Shown: piece after piece, positions 1-3,876 of the stretch
Position numbering within the stretch: the stretch's first letter is position 1
Layout of the letters: the number at the start of each line of letters is the position of its first letter
NCBI RefSeq assembly: GCF_003019035.1
Contig: NZ_CP027447.1
Length of the DNA stretch: 64,000 nt
Strand: one strand, 5' to 3'
Source of the DNA: Escherichia coli
GTDB lineage: Bacteria; Pseudomonadota; Gammaproteobacteria; Enterobacterales; Enterobacteriaceae
Translations under genes and position numbers: made by a program
Notes under the pieces: model-generated
Told to the model about the DNA's origin: nothing
What the model saw: only the letters and a program-made list of their open reading frames with translations
The model's database searches: none

Positions 1-127
1 GACACATCATCAGTATTTTGCCGCAGTATAACATGAAGGCGTCTTTGTTGTTATGCAACGGTTGGAGCAGCGTTCACCTGACGCTATACTGCTTCTCTTT
101 CTTATTGCTCAAACTGTCGACATCACT

Positions 128-919
128 ATGCCCGTTTTTGCTCTGCTCGCGCTTGTCGCCTACTCCGTCAGTCTTGCGCTGATTGTTCCCGGTCTGCTGC
201 AAAAAAACGGCGGCTGGCGGCGCATGGCTATTATTTCTGCGGTCATTGCGCTGGTCTGCCACGCAATCGCTCTGGAAGCCCGCATCCTGCCCGACGGTGA
301 TAGCGGACAAAACCTCAGCCTGCTGAACGTTGGTTCATTGGTCAGTTTGATGATCTGTACGGTAATGACCATTGTGGCTTCTCGCAATCGTGGCTGGTTG
401 CTGCTACCCATTGTCTATGCCTTTGCGCTTATCAACCTGGCGCTGGCGACCTTCATGCCCAATGAATACATAACCCATCTGGAAGCAACGCCTGGGATGC
501 TGGTGCACATTGGCTTATCGCTCTTTTCCTATGCCACGCTAATTATCGCCGCCCTGTACGCGCTGCAACTGGCGTGGATTGATTACCAACTGAAGAACAA
601 GAAACTGGCGTTTAACCAGGAAATGCCGCCATTGATGAGTATCGAGCGTAAAATGTTCCACATCACGCAGATTGGCGTGGTGCTGCTAACGCTCACGCTT
701 TGCACTGGCCTGTTCTACATGCACAACTTATTTAGCATGGAAAATATCGACAAGGCCGTGCTCTCTATCGTGGCGTGGTTTGTCTATATTGTGCTGCTGT
801 GGGGACATTATCATGAAGGATGGCGTGGACGCCGCGTCGTCTGGTTTAACGTTGCGGGTGCAGTCATTCTGACACTGGCCTACTTCGGCAGCCGAATTGT
901 CCAGCAGTTAATCAGCTAA
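128..919 (+). CDS. ypjD: inner membrane protein YpjD (cytochrome c assembly-like family)
   Basis: ORF 53..919; translation from MPVFALLALVAYSV matches remembered E. coli YpjD (263 aa). ATG at 128 chosen over the upstream alternative start of the ORF track. Confidence 0.85.
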   Translation: MPVFALLALVAYSVSLALIVPGLLQKNGGWRRMAIISAVIALVCHAIALEARILPDGDSGQNLSLLNVGSLVSLMICTVMTIVASRNRGWLLLPIVYAFALINLALATFMPNEYITHLEATPGMLVHIGLSLFSYATLIIAALYALQLAWIDYQLKNKKLAFNQEMPPLMSIERKMFHITQIGVVLLTLTLCTGLFYMHNLFSMENIDKAVLSIVAWFVYIVLLWGHYHEGWRGRRVVWFNVAGAVILTLAYFGSRIVQQLIS

Positions 920-963
920 ACCCAGAAAAGGAGTTTCCCCTGGAACACATTTCTACTACTACG

Positions 964-2226
964 TTGATCATTATTCTGATCATCATGGTGGTCATTTCAG
1001 CCTATTTTTCCGGGTCCGAAACCGGAATGATGACCCTCAACCGCTATCGTCTGCGACATATGGCGAAACAGGGTAATCGCTCGGCCAAACGCGTCGAAAA
1101 ATTGCTGCGTAAGCCAGACCGCCTGATTAGCCTGGTGTTAATCGGCAATAACCTGGTCAATATTCTTGCCTCCGCGCTCGGCACTATTGTTGGGATGCGT
1201 TTGTACGGCGATGCGGGCGTGGCAATTGCAACTGGTGTGCTGACTTTTGTCGTACTGGTATTTGCTGAGGTATTGCCGAAAACCATTGCCGCGCTGTACC
1301 CGGAAAAAGTCGCTTATCCGAGTAGTTTTCTGCTGGCTCCGCTGCAAATTTTGATGATGCCGCTGGTCTGGTTGCTGAATGCTATCACCCGTATGCTGAT
1401 GCGCATGATGGGTATCAAAACCGATATCGTGGTTAGCGGCTCTTTGAGCAAAGAAGAGTTGCGCACCATCGTGCACGAATCGCGCTCACAAATTTCCCGT
1501 CGCAATCAGGATATGCTGCTTTCGGTACTCGATCTGGAAAAGATGACCGTCGATGACATCATGGTGCCGCGCAGTGAAATTATCGGTATTGATATCAACG
1601 ATGACTGGAAATCGATTCTGCGCCAACTCTCCCACTCACCTCACGGACGTATCGTGCTCTACCGTGACTCGCTGGACGATGCCATCAGTATGCTGCGAGT
1701 ACGTGAAGCCTGGCGACTCATGTCGGAGAAAAAAGAGTTCACCAAAGAGACGATGCTGCGTGCTGCGGACGAAATCTATTTTGTCCCGGAAGGTACGCCG
1801 CTCAGCACGCAGTTGGTGAAGTTTCAGCGCAACAAAAAGAAAGTCGGCCTGGTCGTCAACGAGTACGGAGACATTCAGGGGCTGGTGACGGTTGAAGATA
1901 TTCTGGAAGAGATTGTCGGCGATTTCACTACGTCGATGTCGCCAACACTTGCCGAAGAGGTCACGCCGCAAAACGACGGGTCGGTAATTATCGATGGCAC
2001 CGCCAACGTGCGAGAAATTAACAAAGCCTTTAACTGGCATCTACCGGAAGATGATGCTCGTACTGTTAACGGCGTCATTCTGGAAGCGCTGGAGGAGATC
2101 CCGGTAGCAGGCACCCGCGTGCGTATTGGCGAGTACGATATCGATATTCTCGACGTACAGGACAATATGATTAAGCAGGTAAAAGTTTTTCCTGTAAAAC
2201 CGCTGCGCGAGAGTGTGGCGGAGTAA
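964..2226 (+). CDS. yfjD: CNNM/CorC-family membrane protein (DUF21-CBS-CorC domains)
   Basis: 420-aa ORF; N-terminal multi-TM region and CBS/CorC-type C-terminus; position between ypjD and grpE as in K-12. ORF-track start at 964 is TTG; a GGAG Shine-Dalgarno at 928-931 is better spaced for the in-frame CTG at 940, so the true start is uncertain. Confidence 0.85.
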   Translation: MIIILIIMVVISAYFSGSETGMMTLNRYRLRHMAKQGNRSAKRVEKLLRKPDRLISLVLIGNNLVNILASALGTIVGMRLYGDAGVAIATGVLTFVVLVFAEVLPKTIAALYPEKVAYPSSFLLAPLQILMMPLVWLLNAITRMLMRMMGIKTDIVVSGSLSKEELRTIVHESRSQISRRNQDMLLSVLDLEKMTVDDIMVPRSEIIGIDINDDWKSILRQLSHSPHGRIVLYRDSLDDAISMLRVREAWRLMSEKKEFTKETMLRAADEIYFVPEGTPLSTQLVKFQRNKKKVGLVVNEYGDIQGLVTVEDILEEIVGDFTTSMSPTLAEEVTPQNDGSVIIDGTANVREINKAFNWHLPEDDARTVNGVILEALEEIPVAGTRVRIGEYDIDILDVQDNMIKQVKVFPVKPLRESVAE

Positions 2227-2280
2227 CGAAAACGGCCCGGCATTCGCATGCTGGGCCGTGATTTATTACGAAAGCAGAAA

Positions 2281-3876
<1,596 letters not shown>

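What the first reader, a model, noticed from the sequence alone, without database searches (positions are those of the whole stretch)
924..966. Ambiguous yfjD start: strong Shine-Dalgarno positioned for a CTG codon
AAAAGGAG at 924-931 lies 8 nt upstream of an in-frame CTG (940) but 32 nt upstream of the TTG (964) used by the ORF track. The intervening codons would encode LEHISTTT. This is either a non-canonical initiation codon or a point change relative to an ancestral ATG.
Basis: seen in the sequence. Interest (0 to 1): 0.2.

Follow-up and report, generated by a model that had tools for sequence, protein, structure and literature searches.

The report
Known CTG start codon of yfjD
The E. coli magnesium-transporter gene yfjD (corB) really does start at the rare CTG codon behind the strong ribosome-binding site, but this was confirmed experimentally and annotated years ago, so the finding is correct and ordinary.

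Summary
The "ambiguity" comes from the ORF rule, which allows only ATG, GTG and TTG. RefSeq already starts yfjD at this CTG (428 aa) in every E. coli genome examined. EcoGene 3.0 (PMC3531124) reports that start-codon mutagenesis with protein fusions confirmed the CTG, and that mutating the TTG at codon 9 had no effect.

Orthologue comparison agrees. In 79 Enterobacteriaceae species residues 2-9 (EHISTTTL) are kept through synonymous changes, and codon 9 is usually CTG, CTC, CTA or CTT.

The "ancestral ATG" alternative is not supported. The start position is CTG in 36 species, TTG in 30, GTG in 13 and ATG in none. Six distant ypjD-linked orthologues (43-49% identity) use TTG or GTG.

One extra detail: CTG species carry a stronger SD (GGAG in 32 of 36) than TTG/GTG species (1 of 43). 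The two features change together on the gene tree, which fits compensation around a deliberately weak start.

Verdict: already known, low interest.

The parts
128..919 (+). ypjD CDS (cytochrome c assembly family inner-membrane protein), upstream gene of the probable operon; stop TAA at 917-919
   Evidence: RefSeq annotation mapped to the window; Pfam Cytochrom_C_asm E=3.7e-48
920..939 (+). 20-nt ypjD-yfjD intergenic spacer that holds the ribosome-binding site
   Evidence: No promoter-like or terminator-like site between the genes. Spacer is 12-30 nt in 68 of the 76 species where it could be measured
926..933 (+). Shine-Dalgarno AAAAGGAG (core GGAG 930-933)
   Evidence: anti-SD duplex -8.2 kcal/mol; the AAGGA core is conserved at -12..-8 in 60-69 of 79 species
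934..939 (+). 6-nt spacer TTTCCC between SD and start codon (7 nt, TTTCCCC, in the O157:H7 lineage)
940..942 (+). CTG initiation codon of yfjD/corB
   Evidence: RefSeq CDS start; mutagenesis reported in EcoGene 3.0, PMC3531124; the position is always NTG, never ATG, in 79 + 6 orthologues
943..963 (+). Codons 2-8 (EHISTTT): the short N-terminal tail before TM1, genuinely coding
   Evidence: Across codons 2-9, 47 nucleotide haplotypes give 5 peptides; all 8 third positions vary against 4 of 16 first/second positions; pairwise codon differences are 8642 synonymous and 386 nonsynonymous. The NCBIfam equivalog PRK11573 aligns from residue 1
964..966 (+). TTG = internal Leu-9, not a start codon (the start used by the ORF track)
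   Evidence: No SD upstream. TTG in only 7 of 79 species; elsewhere CTG, CTC, CTA, CTT or TTA. EcoGene: mutating it had no effect on expression
940..2226 (+). yfjD (corB) CDS, 428 aa, CNNM/CorB-type HlyC/CorC family transporter
   Evidence: Pfam CNNM 11-184, CBS, CorC_HlyC; NCBIfam PRK11573 866.7 bits against a cut-off of 475; PDB relatives 7M1T/7M1U CorB
2232..2259 (+). Terminator-like hairpin after yfjD (between the convergent genes yfjD and grpE)

Best explanation
The CTG at window 940 is the true initiation codon of yfjD (corB), a 428-aa CNNM/CorB-type transporter. yfjD is the second gene of a ypjD-yfjD unit. The 30S subunit is positioned by the AAGGAG Shine-Dalgarno 6 nt upstream, and initiator tRNA reads CUG as a near-cognate start, so the protein begins fMet-Glu-His-Ile-Ser-Thr-Thr-Thr-Leu. 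The TTG at 964 is simply Leu-9. That much is shown. The rest is inferred: the gene is kept on a deliberately weak start. The position moves among TTG, GTG and CTG but never reaches ATG. In lineages that carry the weakest codon, CTG (about 1-2% of AUG in reporter assays), the SD is strengthened from AAGGAA to AAGGAG, which would hold output near a low set-point suited to a membrane Mg2+/Co2+ transporter made alongside YpjD.
For: Annotation: RefSeq starts yfjD at the CTG (428 aa) in all 6 E. coli records inspected, and both genes share a strand with a 20-nt gap. The 428-aa protein cluster has 10,782 member sequences.

Sequence: there is no canonical start in frame between the stop at 847 and 964. 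The SD duplex is -8.2 kcal/mol before the CTG and absent before the TTG.

Comparison: tblastn matches start at residue 1 in 79 of 80 Enterobacteriaceae loci. EHISTTTL is identical in 74 of 79 species with purely third-position variation. Codon 9 is a non-start Leu codon in most species. The 43-nt stretch is identical in 5076 of 5412 E. coli genomes, and the others differ at one position.

Weak-start inference: CTG 36, TTG 30, GTG 13, ATG 0. Six ypjD-linked orthologues at 43-49% identity use TTG or GTG, while the two not linked to ypjD use ATG. GGAG is present in 32 of 36 CTG species against 1 of 43 TTG/GTG species. On the gene tree there are 8 start-codon changes and 7 SD changes, but only 9 for the combined character. 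In tree-aware simulations, 0 of 20,000 runs at each tested number of changes reached the observed concordance of 75/80. Hecht et al. (bioRxiv 10.1101/063800) give CUG 1-2% and GUG/UUG 10-100% of AUG. Belinky et al. (PMC5622118) describe start-codon/SD compensation as a general trend.
Against: The mutagenesis is cited by EcoGene as unpublished work (Dague and Rudd), with no data shown. I found no N-terminal peptide or start-site ribosome-profiling entry for yfjD.

The weak-start and compensation part is correlative. The tree is a midpoint-rooted NJ gene tree. Four CTG species have a weak SD (Atlantibacter, L061, L076) and one TTG species has GGAG (L065). With only 8 inferred changes, never landing on A is only modestly improbable by chance: my own arithmetic gives about (2/3)^8 = 0.04 under equal rates.

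Translational coupling to ypjD is inferred from spacing alone. Eight species have 104-159-nt spacers.
Confidence: 0.95

Rival explanations
1. The TTG at 964 (the ORF-track start) is the real start, giving a 420-aa protein; the SD and CTG upstream are incidental.
For: It is the first ATG/GTG/TTG after the in-frame stop. According to EcoGene it was the earlier annotation, and the MazF-regulon table of Sauert 2016 still measured from it.
Against: There is no SD within 20 nt. TTG occurs at this codon in only 7 of 79 species, and CTC, CTA and CTT cannot initiate. The 8 codons upstream evolve as coding sequence. EcoGene reports that mutating the TTG had no effect. In the predicted RNA fold the TTG sits inside a hairpin, although the fold is not significant (z = -1.5).
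Confidence: 0.02
2. The CTG is a recently decayed ATG: a point mutation from an ancestral ATG, now tolerated or partly disabling the gene.
For: CTG is one substitution from ATG, and ATG is the usual start (81.8% of annotated starts in Hecht et al.).
Against: ATG occurs in 0 of 79 Enterobacteriaceae species and 0 of 6 distant ypjD-linked orthologues. Parsimony roots the family at TTG. The CTG is present throughout Escherichia, Salmonella and the Enterobacter, Kosakonia and Raoultella groups, and the 43-nt start region is identical in 5076 of 5412 E. coli genomes, so it is old and maintained.
Confidence: 0.02
3. Dual initiation: CTG-940 is the main start, but TTG-964 or ATG-985 gives a shorter isoform under stress, for example after MazF cuts the ACA sites at 945-949 and removes the SD and CTG.
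For: Sauert 2016 lists yfjD among MazF-processed, polysome-associated mRNAs with a cleaved ACA 17 nt before 'the start'. That distance fits only TTG-964.
Against: The distance most likely just reflects an outdated annotation, which would make this a cut inside the ORF. The ACA is forced by the Glu-His codons GAA-CAY (78 of 79 species), so its conservation carries no information. The TTG is not conserved. A protein starting at residue 16 would lose part of TM1, since the Pfam CNNM domain starts at residue 11. From my own knowledge, the MazF 'stress ribosome' model has itself been disputed.
Confidence: 0.03
4. The conservation upstream of the TTG reflects a regulatory RNA element (leader or riboswitch), not coding sequence.
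For: CorB-type proteins are linked to Mg2+ transport, and from my own knowledge Mg2+-sensing leader RNAs exist for other Mg2+ transporter genes.
Against: Rfam finds nothing at 700-1200 even at E <= 1. The fold of 890-1000 is not better than shuffled sequence (z = -1.5). Variation has strict 3-nt periodicity, which is the signature of translation. The spacer is only 20 nt.
Confidence: 0.01

Closest known systems
yfjD CTG start as annotated in EcoGene / GenBank U00096 / RefSeq (WP_010723175.1, 428 aa)
   Same: Identical: same gene, same codon, same SD. The window matches E. coli strain SCU-301 at 100% over the 601 bases compared, and K-12 derivatives at 99%.
   Different: Nothing. The window simply contains this known case.
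[quoted passage not shown]
   Same: A near-cognate CUG read by initiator tRNA gives low-level expression of a protein needed in small amounts.
   Different: A different gene and function (regulator of DnaA). I did not examine its SD or its evolutionary pattern here.
Start-codon / Shine-Dalgarno compensation (Belinky, Rogozin and Koonin 2017, PMC5622118)
   Same: Weaker start codons are associated with stronger or more conserved SDs. Here CTG pairs with AAGGAG and TTG/GTG with AAGGAA.
   Different: That study covered ATG, GTG and TTG genome-wide and could not resolve the direction of coupled switches. Here a single gene shows repeated coupled switches that involve CTG, and ATG appears to be excluded rather than favoured.
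infC (AUU start, IF3 autoregulation)
   Same: A non-canonical start codon that, from established knowledge, IF3 discriminates against. A CUG start would also be IF3-sensitive.
   Different: There is no evidence that yfjD is regulated through IF3. Sister species use TTG or GTG, which IF3 accepts, so an IF3-specific circuit is not conserved.

Membership tests
Bacterial genes with a CUG (non-canonical) initiation codon | In-frame CTG preceded by a Shine-Dalgarno at functional spacing (about 5-9 nt) | tested here: met
   GGAG at 930-933, 6-nt spacer, CTG at 940; duplex -8.2 kcal/mol
Bacterial genes with a CUG (non-canonical) initiation codon | No canonical start codon available upstream in frame, and the codons between the CTG and the next canonical start are under coding constraint | tested here: met
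   No ATG, GTG or TTG between the stop at 847 and 964; third-position-only variation in codons 2-9 across 79 species
Bacterial genes with a CUG (non-canonical) initiation codon | Expression is lost when the CTG is mutated and is unaffected when the downstream candidate is mutated | not testable with these tools
   Reported as done, with the CTG confirmed, in EcoGene 3.0 (PMC3531124; cited there as unpublished data)
Bacterial genes with a CUG (non-canonical) initiation codon | N-terminal (f)Met-Glu-His... peptide, or an initiating-ribosome footprint at the CTG | not testable with these tools
   No yfjD entry in the TRAINSPOTTER supplements; the Ribo-RET supplements are not held
CNNM/CorB (HlyC/CorC family, DUF21-CBS-CorC_HlyC) transporters | N-terminal CNNM/DUF21 transmembrane domain, then a CBS pair, then a C-terminal CorC_HlyC domain | tested here: met
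   Pfam CNNM 11-184 (E=8e-54), CBS, CorC_HlyC 344-418; NCBIfam equivalog PRK11573 at 866.7 bits against a cut-off of 475, covering residues 1-427; PDB CorB 7M1T/7M1U E about 1e-43
CNNM/CorB (HlyC/CorC family, DUF21-CBS-CorC_HlyC) transporters | Mg2+ (or Co2+) transport activity | not testable with these tools
   Inferred from homology only. The CorB structure papers list yfjD (P37908) as a family member
Translationally coupled ypjD-yfjD operon | Same strand, short intergenic distance, no intervening promoter or terminator | tested here: met
   20-nt gap; nothing found in the consensus scan; gap of 12-30 nt in most species and ypjD-CNNM gene order kept in orthologues at 43-49% identity
Translationally coupled ypjD-yfjD operon | yfjD translation depends on ypjD translation | not tested
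   Needs a premature stop in ypjD with a yfjD reporter. Eight species with 104-159-nt spacers argue that coupling is not obligatory

The most novel reading that the evidence does not exclude
The ypjD-linked corB/yfjD gene may be under long-term selection against an ATG start across Gammaproteobacteria. The start drifts among TTG, GTG and CTG, SD strength co-evolves to hold a low translation set-point, and ATG appears only where the gene has lost its ypjD neighbour. That would make it an unusually clean natural example of stabilising selection on initiation rate, possibly tied to YpjD:CorB stoichiometry or to re-initiation after ypjD.
Probability: 0.4. Interest if true: 0.35.

Novelty: already known. 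Interest (0 to 1): 0.12.

Why it matters
For genome annotation it is a reminder that ORF finders limited to ATG, GTG and TTG mis-start this gene. Large protein collections hold 409-413-aa truncated versions, and the 50%-identity cluster representative (P0121) starts at residue 16. Biologically, yfjD is one of very few E. coli genes with a CTG start reported as experimentally confirmed. The comparative pattern found here (never ATG, and a stronger SD wherever the codon is CTG) is a tidy single-gene illustration of tuning between start codon and SD. It does not open a new question.

Tried and rejected
1. Outgroups by the search for homologous proteins: the 120 best hits were all Enterobacteriaceae at 87% identity or more, so no outgroup came from it. 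I reached outgroups instead through the 50%-representative search plus look-up of encoding contigs.

2. Independent experimental evidence: the TRAINSPOTTER N-terminomics supplements have no yfjD entry, and the Ribo-RET preprint supplements are not held. A literature search for yfjD with 'CTG' or 'start codon' found only EcoGene 3.0 and the MazF-regulon table.

3. RNA element hypothesis: Rfam found nothing and the fold is not significant.

4. MazF-generated alternative start: the '17 nt' distance fits only the obsolete TTG start, and the ACA is dictated by the Glu-His codons. I rejected it as evidence for a second start.

5. Chance test of the SD motif alone: AAGGAG is at chance frequency in the window, so the motif count is not evidence.

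6. The first MAFFT run for the gene tree timed out; I repeated it with a faster setting.

7. One literature search failed on term length.

Full report
WHAT IS THERE. The first 3.5 kb of the window is the E. coli ffh / ypjD / yfjD / grpE region. A 601-nt probe across the site matches 5425 of 5426 complete E. coli genomes, at 100% to strain SCU-301 and 99% to K-12 derivatives. ypjD (128-919, + strand) ends with TAA at 917-919. After a 20-nt spacer comes yfjD (940-2226, + strand), followed by a terminator-like hairpin at 2232-2259.

The GGAG core is 930-933, the spacer TTTCCC is 6 nt, the CTG is at 940-942, and the TTG at 964-966 is in the same frame, 8 codons downstream. The in-frame stop upstream is at 847, and no ATG, GTG or TTG lies between it and 964. 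That is why a mechanical ORF list, which allows only those three codons, starts at the TTG. Predicted pairing with the 16S rRNA 3' end is -8.2 kcal/mol ahead of the CTG and absent ahead of the TTG. AAGGAG on its own is not over-represented in the window (21 matches against 22.4 expected), so the case rests on position and conservation.

IT IS ALREADY KNOWN. RefSeq places the yfjD CDS start exactly on the CTG (428 aa, WP_010723175.1 and variants) in all six E. coli records I opened. These include a K-12 derivative, O157:H7 and the most divergent strains. The 428-aa protein cluster has 10,782 member sequences.

EcoGene 3.0 (Zhou and Rudd, NAR 2013, PMC3531124) says that two CTG starts were predicted from sequence conservation and ribosome-binding sites. 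[quoted passage not shown] It calls this the second confirmed CTG start in E. coli K-12, after hda.

A scan of one genome per species returned 80 Enterobacteriaceae loci at 87-100% protein identity, and the match begins at residue 1 in 79 of them.

At the position of window 940 the codon is CTG in 36 species, TTG in 30, GTG in 13 and ATG in none. Residues 2-9 are EHISTTTL in 74 of 79 species. Over those codons, 47 different nucleotide haplotypes collapse to 5 peptides. All 8 third positions vary, against only 4 of the 16 first and second positions. Pairwise codon differences are 8642 synonymous and 386 nonsynonymous. These codons are therefore translated.

Codon 9, the E. coli TTG, is CTG in 50 species, CTC in 11, CTA in 6, CTT in 4, TTA in 1 and TTG in only 7, so it is an ordinary leucine. 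Upstream of the start, only the AAGGA core (positions -12 to -8) and a C at -3 are well conserved.

Examples are an extra C in the spacer of O157:H7, and ACG-to-ATG at codon 8 in strain A3024. Both keep the CTG, and both are annotated from it.

The protein-family evidence agrees. The NCBIfam equivalog PRK11573 aligns from residue 1. The Pfam CNNM domain starts at residue 11. Solved CorB structures 7M1T and 7M1U align from query residue 10 to their own residue 11. A short tail of about 10 residues before TM1 is therefore normal for the family.

THE 'ANCESTRAL ATG' IDEA FAILS. No ATG occurs in the 79 species, and Fitch parsimony on a midpoint-rooted NJ gene tree gives TTG as the root state.

To look deeper I took 50%-identity cluster representatives at 43-49% identity and fetched their DNA. 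Six of them lie downstream of a ypjD-like gene, as called genes or Pfam Cytochrom_C_asm hits show. Three of these (L085, L090, L092) also show ffh on the other side. Their start codons are TTG (L085, L087, L091, L093) or GTG (L090, L092). L085, L093 and L092 even keep an AAGGA(A/G) SD at similar spacing. The two representatives without ypjD upstream use ATG: L086 sits directly after ffh, and L089 has no ORF of 80 aa or more that ends upstream. The non-ATG start is therefore ancient for the ypjD-linked gene. The CTG is one of three interchangeable weak codons, not a damaged ATG.

HOW IT MOST LIKELY WORKS. Shown: SD-directed initiation at CUG produces the 428-aa protein.

Inferred: the gene is held at a low initiation rate. 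In reporter assays CUG initiates at about 1-2% of AUG, against 10-100% for GUG and UUG (Hecht et al., bioRxiv 10.1101/063800). Consistent with compensation, a GGAG SD is present in 32 of 36 CTG species but in only 1 of 43 TTG/GTG species, which have AAGGAA, AAGGAC or AAGGAT. Mean duplex energy is -8.1 kcal/mol for CTG species and about -6.0 for the others.

The association is not just shared ancestry. The tree needs 8 start-codon changes and 7 SD changes, but only 9 when the two are scored as one character. When SD changes were placed at random on the tree, 0 of 20,000 simulations at each of 5, 7, 9 and 12 changes reached the observed concordance of 75 tips out of 80. Clear paired switches are the Citrobacter freundii group (GTG with a weak SD) nested among CTG+GGAG relatives, and K. 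pneumoniae (GTG, weak SD) next to a Klebsiella MAG (CTG, GGAG). Exceptions exist: Atlantibacter, L061 and L076 have CTG with a weak SD, and L065 has TTG with GGAG.

Compensation between start codon and SD is a described general trend (Belinky et al. 2017, PMC5622118). What is slightly unusual here is that ATG, which that study found to be generally favoured, never appears.

The tight spacing to ypjD (12-30 nt in most species) and the lack of promoter or terminator signals between the genes suggest co-transcription and possibly translational coupling. This was not tested, and eight species with 104-159-nt spacers show that coupling is not obligatory.

RIVALS. TTG-964 as the start, a decayed ATG, an RNA leader element, and a MazF-generated alternative start were each considered and are contradicted by the data above.

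The MazF point deserves a note. Sauert et al. 2016 (PMC5001579) list yfjD with a cleaved ACA '17 nt' from the start. In the window the only ACA sites that fit are at 945-949, which is 15-17 nt before the TTG. That places them inside codons 2-4 of the real ORF. The nearest ACA before the CTG is 66 nt away. That table therefore used the obsolete start. The ACA is also forced by the Glu-His codons GAA-CAY in 78 of 79 species, so its conservation carries no information.

VERDICT. The feature is already known and annotated. The added comparative detail is neat but falls within a known kind of phenomenon. Interest is low.

Noticed in passing
window 985 (ATG) and window 2438-2728; protein P0121: The 50%-identity cluster representative for E. 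coli YfjD (P0121, 411 aa) starts at the internal ATG (residue 16). Its last ~95 residues equal the + strand ORF 2438-2728, which is antisense to grpE. It therefore comes from a contig with a deletion or misjoin between yfjD and grpE. Other gene-caller versions of 409-413 aa also miss the CTG.
   Followed up: partly
window 934-939; L094 (O157:H7 strain 611): The O157:H7 records examined carry one extra C in the SD-to-CTG spacer (7 nt instead of 6). In all, 336 of 5412 E. coli genomes differ at one position in 924-966.
   Followed up: partly
window 961-963; L095 (strain A3024): Strain A3024 has ACG-to-ATG at codon 8 (Thr8Met), which creates an in-frame ATG one codon before the TTG. RefSeq still starts the CDS at the CTG.
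   Followed up: no
window 917-925; L003 (strain ChlosBP-23-1): A 9-nt tandem duplication (TAACCCCAG) at the ypjD stop codon lengthens the intergenic spacer. The SD and CTG are unchanged.
   Followed up: no
L010, L020, L025, L026, L027, L037 (upstream of position 1501): In Raoultella, Enterobacter sp. 10-1, Citrobacter amalonaticus S646 and Intestinirhabdus, the ypjD-yfjD spacer is 104-159 nt instead of 12-30 nt. Parts look like a GC-rich hairpin or REP-like insert. All of these species have CTG plus GGAG.
   Followed up: no
window 53-130: ypjD has its own start discrepancy. The mechanical ORF begins at ATG 53 (288 aa), while RefSeq annotates ATG 128 (263 aa).
   Followed up: no
window 945-949: The MazF-regulon table (PMC5001579) gives a cleaved ACA 17 nt before the yfjD start. 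That fits only the obsolete TTG start, so the site lies inside codons 2-4 of the real ORF.
   Followed up: yes
window 2248-3876: A 542-aa + strand ORF in the mechanical list runs through the antisense of grpE. Its C-terminal half looks to me like an NAD kinase (nadK) sequence, but that is from my own reading and was not checked with any tool. The long ORF is probably an artefact of the ORF rule rather than a gene.
   Followed up: no
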